Positions 9,001 through 15,000 of a stretch of DNA of 64,000 nucleotides are shown here, in pieces; position 1 is the first letter of the stretch, and the number at the start of each line of letters is the position of its first letter. Location of the stretch: assembly GCF_056712565.1 (NCBI RefSeq), contig NZ_CM160072.1; one strand, 5' to 3'. The position numbers are program-made.

Positions 9001-12000
9001 CTCAAAGAGATGATGCGCCGCATGTGGCCAAATAATGTGCGAGAGCTGGCCAATGCAGCAGAACTATTTACTGTAGGAGTATTACCGCTGGCAGAAACAG
9101 CAAATCCGTTGATGCACGTCGGAACCCCGACACCGCTTGACAGACGAGTGGAGGACGCTGAGCGACAGATAATCACAGAGGCGCTTAATATCCATCAGGG
9201 GCGTATCAATGAGGTTGCTGAATATTTACAAATCCCACGGAAAAAACTCTATCTCAGAATGAAAAAATACGGTCTTAGTAAGGAGCATTATAAAATTTAA
9301 CCATCAGACTTGTGCGCTTGTTCATAATGTTATGTCATTGCCTGATGTTGATAAAAAGACGGACGCTCCCCCTGTAAGACCTGTCTCTTATACACAAGTC
9401 CCCACCCGGGGATTTGTGATGTCTGTCAGTCTGCTTTAGGGGGGGCTCTTTCCATCCGGTACTTTCCTTCCTCCCCGGTAGCCATTTTTTGAACTTTTTC
9501 TTCACCCGTTGATCTTCTCTTATATTTCATTTTATTCGACTCTGTTATGGTACTTTCTGATTGTTATTCATGGGCTAACGAGCAGTTTGGACATGCCCGT
9601 CTCGATGATCCGCGTAGTACACGACGCCTTGTATCACTGGCCTCTTCTCTCGCTCATGCCAGGTCGTGATCGATTCAGATGCCATTTTGCACCTTCAGAA
9701 TTTGAGCTTGCTGCAGTTGTTCCTGATAAGGATCTGGATAAATATGACGAGTATTTACCAGAGTCTTTGCTTGCGAAAGGGTAGGGGGCAAAGGCGTATG
9801 ATATAGAAAGAACGAGCATCTGGTTGCTGAAACACCTTCAGTGGACTGGATATATAGTCAGTGTATAAATGCTTGTTTATACCCTTATTTTTTTACTTAC
9901 CTGTGGACTTACTTGGCTTTAGTCCCGGAGTATTGCCAGGAGTATCTTTATTATCGCGTCGGCGTTGATCCGGTTTTCCTACCGACTTAGCAATTGGTTT
10001 TGGACCTGGTTTAAGACCCATGATAGTTATCCTTCGAGATGTAAGAGGAATGCCCTCAACATTGGTATATTCTATACTGAGAAATTTTTCAATGGAAATG
10101 TTCAACGGCCGAATGATTAACTTGATATTGTGAGCAATATCTTTTTTTGGCACAGAGCGAACCGTTAGATTGCGCGTATTTTTATGGAAGGAGATCATCC
10201 AATAACGGTTACTCACCGATCTTCTTCATGGTAATACGCACCTGTTTTATTAACATATAGAAAAATTACTCCGGCATGTTTTATCTTTTTGAAATCAGGA
10301 CATTTACCAGATCACTTAAAACTCTCTTTTGTTCTTCATCCTGAAGATATTGAATCCGGAATTTAATCTCTTCTGCCACCCGTCTTGTATCGGACTCATT
10401 AAGTATTTTTGTTATTCGCTGTCTCTGATGTTCAGGCTGGTCTTCCATATTTCGTAAAACCAGATGAAATAATATATCATAAAGTGCGCAATGCCATGAA
10501 TAACCATCATTGGTTAAAATAAGCTCCCAAACCCGCTCCTGCTCGGCAATAAGCTGCAGAACAAAGGACTCAACCTGTTCTGTTTGTTCGGGGACAACAC
10601 GGTATAGCGGAGCAATCACAGCAAAAGACAGTTCATTTAACCAGGATTCCGCTTCCTTCTCGCTCCTGAACGATGGACAGTTTTGTATTCTTCGTTCGTA
10701 TTCACGGGTAATCTGCTCCAGAATATCCTCCGGCGGTGTCAGCCACTTATTCCTGAGCAATACACTGGTTGATGGATGACAGCTGGCTATTTCAGCAATA
10801 ATTTCACGTAATGTCTCCGGGCTGAACTTCTTCAGCTGATTGTAGTGCTCCCGGGTAAAACCATGTTCATCGCATAAAAGTTGCCATGTCATTGACACAC
10901 TGTCCGCCATATCTTTCTTCATCATTAATACCTGTTACCTGAATATCAACAGACCGGTGTACCTTTTCTGAATATCTCCCCGGACGGGCTGGCAATCCCC
11001 ATTCGCCTCAGCGTGGCATCTGCAGCTTTCGCCACTTCGCTGATATCCAGCTTTTCAGGTAGCGGCGGGGACGATATCTGCGCCAGACAATAATTCCGGC
11101 GCAACAACAACCACTCCCGTTGTGCTTCTGTACATTCAACATTTCCCATAACAAAAAGCCAGCGGGCAGAAGCTCTGCGCCAGCAACCCGCCGCCTCCAG
11201 CTTCTGTGCAACCATGTCTTCCACGACTTCCGGGGTACTATTTTTCCTGCTCAAAACATCAACTCACTGAATAATACTCATATATGACGGTCTCAGCGAA
11301 CCGTCCATGCCGGGCTGAAATCCTCTTCCTGAAACAACTCCGTCAGTCCGCTAATCTGTTTCAGCCTCAGCACTTCATCCTGGTCCATCCCCAGGCTCTG
11401 TACCAATGCGTTCATCCGTCCAGCCCAGGCGTGACAGGTCCCTGACAATATCAGACATTGAGGTTATCTGGTGTTTACCCCTGGCCCGGTTATGCCGTAT
11501 GGTGGCCGCCATACGTGTGGCCTGTCCCTTTCTTTCCGGATTAATACAGGCCACTGGCAACCAGCCTTTCAGGCGTTTTCCTGTACCTGCTTCCCTGCCC
11601 AGTAACTGACGATGAAAACCATCCACCACCAGATAGGGGTTCTTCTCCGCCGACACCACCACGGGTTGGGTGAAACCATCTTTCTCCAGTGACTGCTTCA
11701 GCAGTTTCTTCTCACCCGGCGCCATGACATTGGGGTTATAATCGTTGGCCACCACCTCATCTGCTTTCACCCACAGCACACAGTCCACAGGCTCCTGTGC
11801 AAAAGGGCTGACTTCATGAAGTACCCTGCGCAGATGATTCAGAGCCTGTATAGTCTCTTTTTCTGATCGTTCCTGGCTGAAGTACTGACGAATCATGTCA
11901 CTCAGTACCTCCACTTCAGGTGTCACAGAATCCCCCATTCATTCCTCCTTTCCTTCATACGCTGCAGGTAACGTTCATAGTGCCGGGGTTTGTTCGGGCT

Positions 12001-15000
12001 GAAGGACAGCGTCCGGCACCAGAAATCATTCTTTATAAGAGTCTTACAGATACGTCGCCAGGACGGGATATCCCGGCAGCCCAGGTCATTCTCCTGTTCA
12101 TCGGGAATGTCATCCGGGAAGCCCCGCGTCTGATACCAGCGCAGATAGACAGCTATCTTGTTGCGGTAATGTTCTGCTGTTCTTTCCGGCATCACATCCA
12201 GCAGAAACATCGCGTAGCTGCGCCAGGTATGATGGGCTGGTTTTGATATGCGCTTGCGCAGGGCAAAATAAGCACCGCTTTCATTGGCATAAAGTGCCCC
12301 GCTGGCAGCCCCTGATACCCGCTCACACATCCTGGCCCAGGTATCCGGCTCCAGAACATGGTAAAGCCACAGTCCCTTACGTTGTTCAGGACCAAAAGGT
12401 TCACAGACACGCATGTTGCGTAACGGTACGCCGGCACGGTACATCAGGTCATACAGGGGATTGTAGATGGCACGGGTTCTGGTGTGATATATCCAGATAT
12501 CACGAGTTTTCCAGTCATACAGTGGATACATGGTGTAGTAAAACCCTTCAGGCGATGCCGTGGTCCAGGGCTTATCATCGGCGTATCTCAGTTTGCGCTG
12601 GGACACCAGTCCCATGAACCGGTTAAGGGACTCATCCGCACGGACACCGGTCAGTACTGCCACACCACATTTATTGTCTGCAAACCAGGAAGAAAATGCC
12701 GGAACAAATTCTTCAAACGTCATGGCATACCGATAAAATGGGAAATACGTCATGTCTGTAATGGCCTCTTCCGGTGGCTGGCGAACCCAGGTCACTCCTG
12801 GCTCCCAGCATATCCACTCCGGCTGAAACTGCGAGACGCCGTTTACCGTGGTCAGGGGAAGTGCCACCCAGTAAAAGGTTTCCGTCACATCATGGTACAT
12901 TTCCCGCATCTTCTGAATATGTTCAATGGTGCACTGGTACTGAGCCTCCCAGTCAATAAACAGTACAGAGAAACGACGTTTTTTCCTGCGGGCCACATCA
13001 GCCAAAAGATGGAAAAGTACGGTGGAATCTTTACCCCCGGAAAAAGAGAGACAAACTGATGGAAATGTTTCAAAAATCCACTCAATACGAGCAATTGCTG
13101 CACGCAGAACATTCTCTCCAGTAAGGACTTTCTCCGTTAATAAATTATCATTCATTTATTTTTACTTTATGCAAAAGAAACCCGTTGATATCTCCAATAC
13201 ATAGCAACAAACATTAAATAATATTTAATTAATTATTACAGAGATCGTTTTTACCCTTATATATAAAGTAAGCTACATACATAAATTTTTTCAATAAGAG
13301 ATTTTTATTGCTGATACTGGCACTGTAACAATCCCAGTAAGAGAACGATTAATAACCACCCACTCATGTGGTTCAACCAGCCAGGAGTTTACATGTTCTG
13401 AATCAATAAAATCATGGCAATATAATATATCTGAAGCAGGTATATCCAATTCCAGTTTAACACGTCCGTGATATTCATTCGCATCATTAAAAGAATTCAA
13501 TATATCCATCTCAAAAGAAATTACCCCCTCCCCCCTCATCTCTGCTGTTTCTTTTAACTCAGCAATCATATCTGCATACCTGCCATTAAGTTTCCTGCCT
13601 AACTGGACAGTTGTAATTTTCTTTTCGTTGCAGCATCGCTGAGTATGTTCATATATAGCCATCACTTCCCGGCAAATACAATCAACTTCTATATCACTCA
13701 AAGAATTATATATATCCATAACTTTTCTCTCATAACGCAAAAAACGATTAAATATACGATAATGAGAGAGCAAATCAGGATTTATTACTTTTATTAAAAA
13801 TAAAGTTAATAAAACATAACCTATCTGTTTGCTACCATTAAACCCAATAAAATCACTTACCACATCTCCTTTCAATCTACCTGTTCCGATACAACGAGCT
13901 AACAATTCACTCCTGACATTATATTTACCATTCATATTCGCCACACTATCCTGAACAACAAATGATCACCAAAATGCGTTTAAATACCCTACAAACAAAC
14001 TATCTCACTGAATAAATTGCAACACTTCCCCTTCCACAACGTCCTAAAGGCTTTATATAAAAACAGCAAAAACGAATTAGTTATGCAAAGTCATTTATAT
14101 GAAACCCAGCCATTAACCAATGTTATAATCAGCATCCCATAACGCGAACATTATCACTTTCACCATTATTTTTTGCCCATATTTTTAATTGTTCCATGAG
14201 TTGAGCATTAAAATCATCATCGGGTTCAAAGTCATCAGGATCATAACACTCCCCTTCAAACAAATTAATTATAAGATTTTGAATCTTTTCTTTTAATTTT
14301 TCATCGCGCGAAATTCGATTAAATGCTGTATAGGGTTTATCTTTCCCCAACTCCTCACCACCTAAAAAACGCTCAAAATCGGGGGCACTCCAACGATGAT
14401 ATACTTTTTTCCCATTATTCCTGCATTTTATAATCTCATTTCTAATGATCGTATTAAGCGTCCATGAACCATTATTCGAACCATCTCTACGATAAGGCCA
14501 ATCAATATCATGTACAATCCCAAAATCTGCTTTAAAATGATTTAACATCTTTATCAAAGGAACCAGAACCGCCTTACCTCTGGCTCTGACAATACTTACC
14601 TTACCTGACATCTCATGTTTTTCTTTAGTGATTGCTGAAATAAATGCCGCATGTTCAGTATCACCTTCAACAATAATTGGATAACTCCCAAAAAATATTT
14701 CAGCAAAACCAATATCTGTAAGTTGTAGTGCCTGTAAATTATCTTTCTCATCAAGTGAGAAGTTAGCTTCATCAGCCACATACAAGCGTGGAGAAAGTGA
14801 TTTCCCATCTGTTGAACGTTGCATACGAGCAATCGTAGTATGATCCTCAAGAGGGTTTATAAAGTATGGTGAATGAGTTGTTAATAGCACCTGCCAATCT
14901 GGATGTTTACCAAGTTCATAAAGATGCGCTTGCGCCGCTCTGGCAGCCATTGGGTGTAACGCATTTTCTGGCTCATCCATTAAAAGAATATATCCGGGCA

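What the first reader, a model, noticed from the sequence alone, without database searches (positions are those of the whole stretch)
10281..13155. IbrA/IbrB-type PAPS-reductase-like plus ParB-like pair heading a four-gene operon with two unassignable partners
Seen in sequence: a 410-aa protein with PP-loop motif SFSGGKDS overlaps by 16 nt a 187-aa protein with a ParB/sulfiredoxin-type DGFHR motif; two further co-directional ORFs (102 aa and 214 aa) follow with gaps of 120 and 20 bp and carry no motif I can recognise. Established knowledge: this pairing is the IbrAB module, described only as an activator of eib immunoglobulin-binding genes; PAPS-reductase-like enzymes (DndC-like) and ParB-like domains recur in DNA sulfur-modification and anti-phage systems. 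Inference: the module may be a DNA-modification or defence system, and the two downstream genes may be undescribed components. Flanking IS remnants and AT-rich neighbours fit a defence islet.
Basis: partly seen in the sequence, partly recalled or inferred. Interest (0 to 1): 0.65.

Follow-up and report, generated by a model that had tools for sequence, protein, structure and literature searches.

The report
Decayed ibrAB–pchD island block of E. coli
This is a copy, broken by a frameshift, of the already named E. coli ibrA/ibrB gene pair, followed by a known PerC-type regulator (pchD) and a helical protein of unknown function. It is a mosaic specific to E. coli, not a new four-gene defence system, although how IbrAB works is still unknown.

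Summary
All four ORFs exist as described, on the minus strand (16-nt overlap, gaps of 120 and 20 bp). Three points change the picture.

1. The 187-aa "IbrB" is a frameshift product. One extra C (near window 11394) removes the invariant C-terminal motif. RefSeq calls it a pseudogene, and several independent assemblies carry the same allele.
2. orf102 is assignable. It is a PerC-family regulator (Pfam E 6e-36) and the positional ortholog of O157:H7 pchD.
3. The partners are not components of IbrAB. IbrA and IbrB are adjacent in 13 other bacterial species and in phages of four phyla, and none of the 16 loci scanned carries perC or orf214. In E. coli, 2021 complete genomes have ibrAB and only 969 have all four genes. 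Divergent orf214 relatives occur without ibrAB.

orf214 is an all-helical protein labelled SpnT-like, weakly related to DUF6880. It pairs with PerC in one unrelated locus.

The core is a self-contained pair carried by mobile elements: IbrA, a PP-loop (PAPS-reductase fold) enzyme, and IbrB, a ParB-like protein. It is not CysH, DndBC or BrxP, and it is probably DNA-directed. The defence-island setting is real: sister strains carry Shango, and an OLD nuclease remnant lies in the window. A defence role is untested.

The parts
11923..13155 (-). ibrA: 410-aa PP-loop enzyme with a PAPS-reductase-like fold and a C-terminal DUF3440 domain
11294..11938 (-). ibrB pseudogene: ParB/Srx-like protein with a +1 insertion near 11394.
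   Evidence: RefSeq marks it 'frameshifted'. Alignment to intact alleles. The same frameshift is in an independent assembly and the gene is intact in a sibling strain. The lost tail holds 13 invariant residues of the family. PHROG 2159 E 3e-72.
10946..11215 (-). PerC-family transcriptional regulator, ortholog of O157:H7 pchD (89 aa from the ATG; 102 aa if the TTG at 11254 is used)
   Evidence: Pfam PerC E 5.9e-36. RefSeq annotation. 95.5% identical to the O157 copy, whose position matches ECs1388 = pchD.
10281..10925 (-). orf214: all-alpha helical-repeat protein of unknown function, labelled 'SpnT protein' in AFDB and remotely related to DUF6880 proteins
   Evidence: No hit in Pfam, PADLOC, NCBIfam or PHROGs. 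The family is centred on Escherichia, with distant members found. AF2 pLDDT 70, and only generic HEAT/ARM-like fold hits. GC 0.42.
9893..10216 (-). 107-aa hypothetical gene that travels with the block in many E. coli genomes
   Evidence: 96% identical in SA31-1. No family hit.
13291..13944 (-). 217-aa AT-rich hypothetical gene upstream of ibrA that travels with the block in many E. coli genomes
   Evidence: 92% identical in SA31-1. GC 0.35. No family hit.
9692..9841 (+). Remnant (last 50 residues) of the Shango helicase SngC. The rest of the system has been deleted.
   Evidence: tblastn 86% identity to SngC residues 683-732. A complete SngABC system is present in strain SA31-1.
14129..15589 (-). 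OLD-family ATP-dependent nuclease remnant. It lacks the N-terminal ~138 profile positions and has no Walker A motif. It abuts an IS3 element (15748-16961).
   Evidence: PADLOC Old E 1.6e-49, profile positions 139-523 of 578. No Walker A motif. IS3 annotation.

Best explanation
**What it is.** The locus is a decayed copy of a gene block already present and partly named in E. coli. In O157:H7 Sakai it is ECs1386-1389. It consists of ibrA, ibrB, a PerC-family regulator (pchD) and a helical protein labelled SpnT-like. It sits in an IS-riddled variable island.

**The functional unit.** Only the ibrA-ibrB pair is conserved widely.
- IbrB has a ParB/Srx-type nucleotide-binding fold (DGFHR and RHNRARGKH motifs) and an invariant C-terminal helical motif.
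- IbrA is a PP-loop ATP pyrophosphatase of the PAPS-reductase, FAD-synthase and CysD fold group, with a C-terminal DUF3440 domain.
- The two genes overlap, which suggests translational coupling.

**Shown elsewhere.** Cloned ibrA and ibrB together switch on silent prophage eib genes (Sandt et al. 2002).

**Inferred mechanism.** IbrB binds DNA in a nucleotide-dependent way and positions or regulates IbrA. IbrA then adenylates and derivatises a nucleic-acid or nucleotide substrate. The outcome is altered expression, or altered protection, of mobile-element DNA. On this reading the pair serves the mobile element as a DNA-directed regulatory or modification module, and is not an abortive or restriction-type host defence.

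**The two partners.** perC (pchD) and orf214 are a separate add-on found only in the E. coli lineage. They are co-transcribed or co-regulated with ibrB. perC is a small transcription factor, and orf214 is a helical protein that may be its partner.

**This window.** The ibrB frameshift removes the invariant C-terminal motif, so IbrAB activity is most likely lost here.
For: **Identity**
- Pfam, PHROG and RefSeq assignments.
- Positional match to ECs1382-1396 in O157: HecB-like/POTRA, AAA, IbrA, IbrB, pchD, hypothetical, then cah.

**The pair is the unit**
- IbrA and IbrB are adjacent or overlapping in 13 non-E. coli species and in three phages. Nothing else is conserved around them.
- The pair is also found in phages of Bacillota, Actinomycetota and Bacteroidota.
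- More than 5,800 90%-identity clusters of IbrA exist.

**DNA-directed action**
- An SNF2-like helicase overlaps or abuts the pair in Lactobacillus, Streptococcus and Flavobacterium phages (37% identity across phyla, E 2e-75).
- A methyltransferase abuts it in a Bacillus phage.

**Catalytic features**
- PP-loop and PAPS-reductase motifs are invariant. There is no invariant catalytic Cys.

**The partners are an add-on**
- 2021 E. coli genomes carry ibrAB and 969 carry all four genes.
- GC content and dS differ along the block: ibrA dS is 0.38 and orf214 dS is 0.054 against O157.
- ibrB, perC and the next gene were co-induced 2.4- to 7.6-fold in two STEC strains (PMC7649339).
- An orf214 relative overlaps a perC gene, in the opposite order, in an unrelated locus that has no ibrAB.

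**Frameshift:**
Against: - No biochemical or structural study of IbrA or IbrB was found. The substrate and the DNA-directed step are inference only.
- The Sandt 2002 paper is not in the held library. Its content is recalled from memory plus its title.
- The block lies among validated defence systems in sister strains (Shango, a Mokosh-like ATPase, NERD+UvrD). That is the classic hint of a defence function.
- A preprint lists PAPS-reductase (plus ParBc) operons as candidate defence systems.
- The helicase partner is absent from the enterobacterial loci.
- The PerC-orf214 pairing rests on only two independent contexts.
Confidence: 0.5

Rival explanations
1. First reader's view. The four genes form one anti-phage defence or DNA-modification system, in which PerC-like orf102 and orf214 are undescribed components working with an IbrAB core that resembles DndBC.
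For: - The domain pair resembles DndC/DndB and BrxP (weak PADLOC hits).
- The block sits in a defence hotspot: complete Shango next door in SA31-1, a Mokosh-like ATPase in O157, and an OLD nuclease remnant in the window.
- ibrB, perC and the next gene are co-induced.
- Within E. coli, 969 of the 1034 genomes with perC-orf214 have it contiguous with ibrAB.
Against: - Neither partner accompanies IbrAB in any of 13 other species or in the three phage loci scanned.
- Half of the E. coli ibrAB loci lack them.
- orf214 relatives occur alone.
- orf102 is a transcription factor family member.
- No effector or toxin domain is present.
- The pair is carried by a phage reported as lytic (FCL-2).
- The E. 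coli linkage is explained by common descent: perC-orf214 is 95-97% identical almost everywhere.
- ibrB is a pseudogene here.
Confidence: 0.1
2. IbrAB is a phage or mobile-element counter-defence or self-marking module. Together with an SNF2-like helicase in phages, it chemically modifies the element's own DNA to escape host restriction. The eib activation is a side effect of that modification.
For: - It is a stand-alone enzyme plus DNA-binding pair with no linked restriction component, like orphan methyltransferases.
- It is present in temperate phages and in a phage reported as lytic, in four phyla.
- A helicase-IbrB-IbrA cassette occurs in phages, and a methyltransferase abuts the pair in a Bacillus phage.
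- ParB-like domains fused to DNA methyltransferases form a PHROG family that IbrB hits weakly (phrog_498).
Against: - No modified base or backbone has been reported for any IbrAB-carrying phage in the literature searched.
- Chromosomal and plasmid copies in Enterobacteria lack the helicase and sit next to fimbrial or virulence genes rather than in plasmid leading regions.
- This reading overlaps the best explanation and differs mainly in who benefits.
Confidence: 0.25
3. IbrA is an auxiliary metabolic PAPS reductase (CysH-like) that supports sulfur assimilation.
For: It is annotated 'phosphoadenosine phosphosulfate reductase' in RefSeq and PHROGs. The fold is closest to APS/PAPS reductases.
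Against: - NCBIfam CysH/PAPS-reductase models score 29-35 bits against cut-offs of 154-254.
- There is no invariant Cys at the catalytic position. The Cys of MRVCEPF is Ala-Ser in phage homologs.
- It is obligately paired with a ParB-like gene.
- FAD synthase and CysD, which are adenylyl transferases and not reductases, match the fold equally well.
Confidence: 0.02
4. IbrB-type ParB-like proteins, with IbrA, act in phage DNA packaging or partition, for example as a small-terminase-like DNA-recognition factor. The chromosomal copies would then be inert prophage debris.
For: In mycobacteriophage Obutu the order is ParB-like, PAPS-reductase-like, ParB-like, then the terminase gene directly, with no small terminase annotated. 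ParB proteins bind specific DNA sites.
Against: - In other phages the pair lies far from the terminase, between the lysis and early modules.
- Stand-alone copies in islands and plasmids are under strong purifying selection (ibrA dN/dS 0.06).
- A regulatory phenotype was reported for the cloned genes.
Confidence: 0.05

Closest known systems
IbrA/IbrB of E. coli ECOR-9 (Sandt, Hopper & Hill 2002) and their O157:H7 homologs ECs1386/ECs1387 in OI-43/48 (SpLE1)
   Same: Same two families, the same 16-nt overlap, and the same downstream perC (pchD) and 214-aa gene. The block is 92-93% identical in nucleotide sequence to the O157 block.
   Different: ibrB carries a frameshift here. The flanks differ: pgt genes, a Shango remnant and an OLD nuclease remnant, in place of the ter/cah island.
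DndB/DndC of DNA phosphorothioation systems
   Same: A ParB-like protein with a DGxHR motif is paired with a PAPS-reductase-like PP-loop enzyme.
   Different: - IbrA scores 14.9 bits against the DndC model, whose cut-off is 290.
- IbrB hits no DndB model.
- No DndA, DndD or DndE partners are present.
- There is no conserved Cys cluster.
BrxP (PAPS-reductase protein of type 4 BREX)
   Same: Shares the PP-loop region (PADLOC E 2.6e-7 over about 80 residues).
   Different: The match covers only the PP-loop. There is no DUF4007, and no PglZ, BrxC or other BREX genes nearby.
PchD / PerC family regulators of EPEC and EHEC
   Same: orf102 is a full-length PerC domain protein, 95.5% identical to the O157 copy at the pchD position.
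   Different: Unlike pchA, pchB and pchC, pchD had little effect on LEE expression in published tests (PMC6265319). Its target genes are unknown.
SpnT of Serratia TnTIR / DUF6880 proteins (about 460 aa)
   Same: Residues ~22-170 of orf214 match the N-terminal part of 460-aa proteins (E 2e-10 to 1e-4). One of these carries a weak DUF6880 hit. AFDB labels a 92%-identical protein 'SpnT protein'.
   Different: orf214 is half the length. The relationship is remote. The Serratia SpnT sequence itself was not available to compare.
ParB-family CTP-dependent regulators (VirB of Shigella, KorB of RK2)
   Same: A ParB N-terminal-type fold with arginine-rich motifs and a C-terminal helical DNA-binding-like segment. 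The reported phenotype is activation of silent, horizontally acquired genes. This comparison is from my own knowledge and was not tested here.
   Different: IbrB is far from canonical ParB (Pfam ParB_N E 0.04; Noc model 17.7 bits against a cut-off of 315). It also needs the enzyme IbrA.

Membership tests
IbrAB module | IbrA architecture: PAPS-reductase-like PP-loop domain plus DUF3440 | tested here: met
   Pfam PAPS_reduct (two stretches) plus DUF3440 at E 1.1e-24. PHROG 2302 E 8e-84.
IbrAB module | A ParB-like ibrB gene immediately downstream, overlapping or abutting ibrA | tested here: met
   16-nt overlap. The same arrangement occurs in all 16 comparison loci.
IbrAB module | Intact IbrB with the invariant C-terminal motif LGMDxDEVLRLKQISGL..F..FS..W | tested here: not met
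   A 1-nt insertion near 11394 replaces the last 33 residues with 6 unrelated ones. RefSeq annotates a pseudogene.
IbrAB module | Activation of eib (immunoglobulin-binding protein) expression | not testable with these tools
   This needs an experiment. No eib search was made in the window.
Assimilatory PAPS/APS reductase (CysH) | Score above the curated family cut-off | tested here: not met
   NCBIfam PRK02090 35.4 bits against 154; TIGR02057 34.8 against 254; TIGR00434 29.2 against 165.
Assimilatory PAPS/APS reductase (CysH) | Conserved catalytic C-terminal cysteine (ECGLH-type; the motif itself is recalled from my own knowledge) | tested here: not met
   The only invariant Cys is C370, in DUF3440. 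The Cys of MRVCEPF is not conserved in phage homologs.
Dnd phosphorothioation (DndBCDE) | DndC and DndB family membership | tested here: not met
   TIGR03183 14.9 bits against 290. PADLOC DndC E 2e-4 with no stretch passing on its own. IbrB has no PADLOC hit.
Dnd phosphorothioation (DndBCDE) | Linked dndA/D/E genes (and dndFGH) | tested here: not met
   None among the annotated or scanned neighbours. No third conserved gene in 13 loci.
BREX type 4 | A BrxP-like protein together with PglZ, BrxC and BrxL-type genes | tested here: not met
   Only a PP-loop-level match to BrxP. No BREX genes in the neighbourhood.
PerC family (PF06069) | Full-length match to the PerC domain | tested here: met
   E 5.9e-36, model positions 2-89 of 90.
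PANGU-like NAP systems (candidate clusters 8 and 9: NAP + PAPS reductase ± Arc, ParBc) | A YejK-like nucleoid-associated protein gene in the operon | tested here: not met
   No such gene among the annotated neighbours of the block. The definition is taken from the preprint.
Canonical ParB/Noc partition proteins | Family-level score, with a parA partner and parS sites | tested here: not met
   Pfam ParB_N E 0.041. Noc model 17.7 bits against 315. No parA gene nearby. parS sites were not searched.
SpnT / DUF6880 | Sequence membership | tested here: inconclusive
   No Pfam hit for orf214. A profile of the family reaches 460-aa proteins at E 2e-10 to 1e-4, and one of them has a weak DUF6880 hit. 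There is only a database label 'SpnT protein'.

The most novel reading that the evidence does not exclude
The IbrA-IbrB pair, joined by an SNF2-like helicase in phages of at least two phyla, may be a very widespread and uncharacterised DNA-derivatising machine of mobile elements. It would use PP-loop (adenylation) chemistry distinct from the Dnd, Ssp, Dpd and methyltransferase systems, and its activity would alter gene silencing or restriction sensitivity. Separately, PerC-family regulators may work with SpnT/DUF6880-like helical proteins as a two-protein regulatory unit.
Probability: 0.25. Interest if true: 0.7.

Novelty: already known. Interest (0 to 1): 0.3.

Why it matters
For this window, very little. 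The block is a degraded copy of genes present in about 970 complete E. coli genomes, including O157:H7, where the genes are already named or catalogued.

For the family, the open question is real:
- IbrAB-type pairs are found in more than 5,800 protein clusters across bacteria and phages.
- No solved structure was found by sequence search, and no substrate or mechanism in the literature searched.
- The only reported phenotype is activation of silent prophage genes.

The helicase-IbrB-IbrA cassette seen here in phages gives a concrete, testable lead that the pair acts on DNA. The result also cautions against reading lineage-level gene linkage inside one species as evidence for a multi-component system.

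Tried and rejected
- **Conserved site upstream of ibrA** (a possible IbrB binding site): an alignment of 10 loci showed no conservation.
- **Promoter and terminator scan of 9700-14200**: 10 promoter-like sites against 9.0 expected and 1 terminator-like site against 3.5 expected. 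This says nothing either way about operon structure.
- **orf214 in phages**: no tblastn match in 50,697 phage records, and no relative in IMG/VR.
- **Sequence search of solved structures** for IbrA and IbrB: only remote PP-loop and ParB matches.
- **Possible third partner gene** from ORF clustering (L015, L020, L025): these are unrelated histidine-kinase proteins.
- **Literature**: ten searches found no mechanistic study of IbrAB. Sandt 2002 and Maindola 2014 are not held. One apparent hit was a journal abbreviation.
- **pchE as the linked PerC gene**: rejected. pchE (ECs1588) lies in OI-51 behind two small ORFs.

Full report
**Observation**

The window is E. coli. Positions 9300-14100 are 100% identical to strain HS13-1. 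On the minus strand there are four ORFs: 410 aa (11923-13155), 187 aa (11375-11938), 102 aa (10946-11254) and 214 aa (10281-10925). The motifs SFSGGKDS and DGFHR are present.

**First correction: ibrB is frameshifted**

- RefSeq annotates 11294-11939 as a frameshifted IbrB-like pseudogene.
- Alignment with intact alleles from strains SA31-1, O157:H7 ATCC 43889 and FCI5 shows one extra C near window 11394 (GAGCCTGGGG versus GAGCTGGGG).
- The identical allele is in the independent assembly GPEC606. At least four further genomes match the whole 1862-nt ibrAB query at 100%. It is therefore a real mutation shared across several strains and not a read error. A sibling island in FCI5 has the intact gene.
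- In an alignment of 14 IbrB proteins from Enterobacteria, Victivallis and Gram-positive phages, the lost tail (LGMDxDEVLRLKQISGL..F..FS..W) contains 13 invariant positions. This copy of IbrB is very probably inactive.

**Second correction: orf102 is assignable**

- It is a full-length PerC-family protein (Pfam PF06069, E 5.9e-36; RefSeq 'PerC family transcriptional regulator', starting at the ATG at 11215).
- The O157:H7 copy of the block lies in the order POTRA/HecB-like, hypothetical, AAA protein, IbrA, IbrB, PerC, 214-aa protein, then cah.
- This matches the published order ECs1382 (HecB-like) ... ECs1386, ECs1387, ECs1388 = pchD, ECs1389 ... ECs1396 = cah in S-loop 72 / OI-43,48 (PMC1890555).
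- The window's PerC is 95.5% identical to that copy, so it is a pchD ortholog.
- In published tests pchD had little effect on LEE genes (PMC6265319).

**What IbrA and IbrB are**

- IbrA has PAPS_reduct and DUF3440 domains.
- It scores far below the curated cut-offs for CysH, CysD and DndC. Against PADLOC models it gives only a PP-loop-level match to BrxP and marginal matches to DndC.
- Across 14 homologs the invariant residues are the PP-loop FSGGKDS, D68/E70/Q72, GxRxxES and PxYDWxxxDIW. The only invariant cysteine is C370, in DUF3440. There is therefore no CysH-type catalytic Cys and no invariant multi-Cys signature that would suggest an iron-sulfur cluster.
- IbrB matches a phage 'ParB-like' PHROG strongly (E 3e-72) but canonical ParB and Noc only marginally.
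- No solved structure of either family was found by sequence.

**Is it a four-gene system? Comparative evidence**

1. *Outside E. coli.* A scan of one genome per species returned 13 usable non-E. coli loci: Klebsiella, three Citrobacter, Yersinia, four from Edwardsiella, Cedecea, Enterobacter, Victivallis and Martelella. In every one IbrB follows IbrA directly. None has PerC, orf214, or the two flanking hypothetical genes within about 6 kb. Clustering of all neighbouring ORFs found no third conserved gene.
2. *In phages.* tblastn found IbrA-like genes in 224 phage records. In the seven phage loci opened, from hosts in Pseudomonadota, Bacillota, Actinomycetota and Bacteroidota, an IbrB-type ParB-like gene lies next to or within 1 kb of IbrA. 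orf214 has no phage or IMG/VR relative.
3. *Within E. coli.*
   - 2154 of 5426 complete genomes carry ibrAB, 2021 of them nearly full length.
   - 1063 carry perC-orf214.
   - 969 carry all four genes contiguously.
   - Half of the ibrAB loci therefore lack the partners. These include the ~88%-identity allele of Nissle 1917, 536 and JJ1886, and plasmid copies.
   - This perC-orf214 allele, in contrast, is almost always found next to ibrAB.
4. *Common descent and mosaicism.* That one-sided linkage looks like common descent.
   - perC-orf214 is 95-97% identical in nearly all genomes, while ibrAB is 80-95%.
   - Synonymous divergence from O157 is 0.38 for ibrA, 0.10 for perC and 0.054 for orf214.
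   - GC content drops from 0.50-0.55 (ibrA, ibrB, perC) to 0.42 (orf214).
   - The block is a recombinant mosaic.
5. *orf214 relatives elsewhere.* Members at 54-56% identity sit directly after the T6SS gene vasL with no ibrAB or perC. More distant members lie in other islands.

**What still links the genes in E. coli**

- The spacing is tight, and no convincing terminator separates the genes (that scan is weak evidence).
- In two STEC strains ibrB, perC and the next gene (consecutive locus tags) were induced together 2.4- to 7.6-fold on adherence to epithelial cells (PMC7649339). They are probably co-transcribed.
- A distant orf214 relative (P0043) overlaps a perC gene by 4 nt in the opposite order, in an unrelated metagenomic locus without ibrAB. 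This hints that PerC and this helical protein may be a pair in their own right.
- orf214 itself is all-alpha (AF2 pLDDT 70) and gives only generic helical-repeat fold matches.
- A profile of the family reaches the N-terminal part of ~460-aa proteins, one with a weak DUF6880 hit.
- AFDB labels a 92%-identical protein 'SpnT protein'. An E. coli gene annotated spnT was deleted in one study, with effects on antibiotic tolerance of adherent clumps (PMC11064533). I could not confirm that it is the same gene.

**Context**

The 'defence islet' idea has substance.

- In SA31-1 the block is flanked by a complete Shango system (SngA, SngB and SngC at E 9e-100 to 2e-277) and a NERD+UvrD protein. In O157 it is flanked by a Mokosh-like ATPase.
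- The window retains only the last 50 codons of sngC (9692-9841) and an OLD-family nuclease that lacks its N-terminal ATPase motif and abuts an IS3 element.
- Plasmid and B2-phylogroup chromosomal copies of ibrAB instead lie beside fimbrial, VirK and surface-polysaccharide genes.

Location therefore does not settle function.

**Mechanism**

- *Shown:* the domain identities and the obligate pairing. From the literature, the cloned pair activates silent prophage eib genes (Sandt et al. 2002; title seen, content recalled from memory).
  - An SNF2-like helicase lies immediately upstream of ibrA in Lactobacillus phage AQ113 (10-nt overlap) and Streptococcus phage PY1.
  - In Flavobacterium phage FCL-2 the helicase overlaps ibrB, which in turn overlaps ibrA.
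  - The AQ113 and FCL-2 helicases are 37% identical across phyla (E 2e-75).
  - A Bacillus phage places a methyltransferase next to the pair.
  - A mycobacteriophage places the pair directly before the terminase.
  - FCL-2 is reported as lytic (PMC4541368).
- *Inferred:* IbrB is a nucleotide-dependent DNA-binding partner that directs or gates the adenylating enzyme IbrA on DNA, for the benefit of the mobile element (regulation or self-marking). I put about 0.5 on this overall reading. Within it, the DNA-modification step is unproven.
- *Rivals:* a four-gene defence system (0.1), a pure phage counter-defence role (0.25; it overlaps my reading), packaging or partition (0.05), and sulfur metabolism (0.02).

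**Novelty and verdict**

The genes and their order are already catalogued: ibrAB since 2002, pchD since the mid-2000s literature cited in PMC6265319, and co-expression in 2020. This copy is decayed. The unknown that remains is the biochemistry of the very widespread IbrAB pair, and a better specimen than this window should be used to study it.

Noticed in passing
window 9692-9841 (+); locus L002 2330-8154: The window keeps only the last 50 codons of the Shango helicase sngC. Sister strain SA31-1 has a complete SngABC system at the same place, convergent with the ibr block. An IS4-family fragment (9547-9654) and the pgt genes replace it here.
   Followed up: partly
window 14129-15589 (-), IS3 at 15748-16961: An OLD-family ATP-dependent nuclease that lacks about 138 N-terminal profile positions and has no Walker A motif, directly next to an IS3 element. 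It is probably a truncated defence gene, although RefSeq annotates it as intact.
   Followed up: partly
L007 4842-7798; L006 4883-7822; L042 2243-5107: In Lactobacillus, Streptococcus and Flavobacterium phages an SNF2-like helicase is fused in an overlapping gene chain with the IbrA/IbrB pair. In FCL-2 the order is helicase-IbrB-IbrA. The helicases are 37% identical across phyla. The cassette is absent from enterobacterial loci.
   Followed up: partly
L044 1-4474 (mycobacteriophage Obutu); L043 3275-6565 (Bacillus phage 031MP002): In Obutu the gene order is ParB-like, PAPS-reductase-like, ParB-like, then directly the terminase, with no small terminase annotated. The Bacillus phage has ParB-like, PAPS reductase, methyltransferase and a second ParB-like gene.
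   Followed up: no
L028/L029 5374-10274: A distant orf214 relative overlaps a PerC gene by 4 nt (order reversed relative to E. coli). It follows a PRiA4_ORF3 protein and lies near a YejK-like NA37 gene plus a RelA/SpoT gene, an arrangement like the PANGU systems described in a 2026 preprint.
   Followed up: partly
L008 3839-5040; L011 6542-8660; L033 6001-11267: orf214-family genes recur at the end of type VI secretion clusters, just after or near vasL/impA-like genes. This suggests a shared integration hotspot rather than a T6SS function.
   Followed up: no
window 10281-13155 compared with L003: Synonymous divergence from the O157 block is 0.38 for ibrA but only 0.05-0.10 for perC and orf214. 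orf214 dN/dS is 0.9 against O157 and 0.19 against SA31-1. This points to recombination within the block and possibly relaxed constraint on the C-terminus of orf214.
   Followed up: partly
window 3077-9300: A complete phosphoglycerate transport locus (pgtP, pgtC, pgtB, pgtA), which E. coli K-12 lacks to my knowledge (not checked here), directly abuts the IS4 fragment next to the ibr block. ireA (18356-20404) and further IS elements lie on the other side. The whole stretch is a composite fitness and virulence island.
   Followed up: no
window 13291-13944 (-) and 9893-10216 (-): Two hypothetical genes (217 aa at GC 0.35, and 107 aa) flank the four-gene block. Both flank it in strain SA31-1 as well, and about 445 complete E. 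coli genomes match at least 80% of the 9300-14100 stretch that contains them. Neither hits Pfam-independent libraries (PADLOC, NCBIfam, PHROGs).
   Followed up: partly
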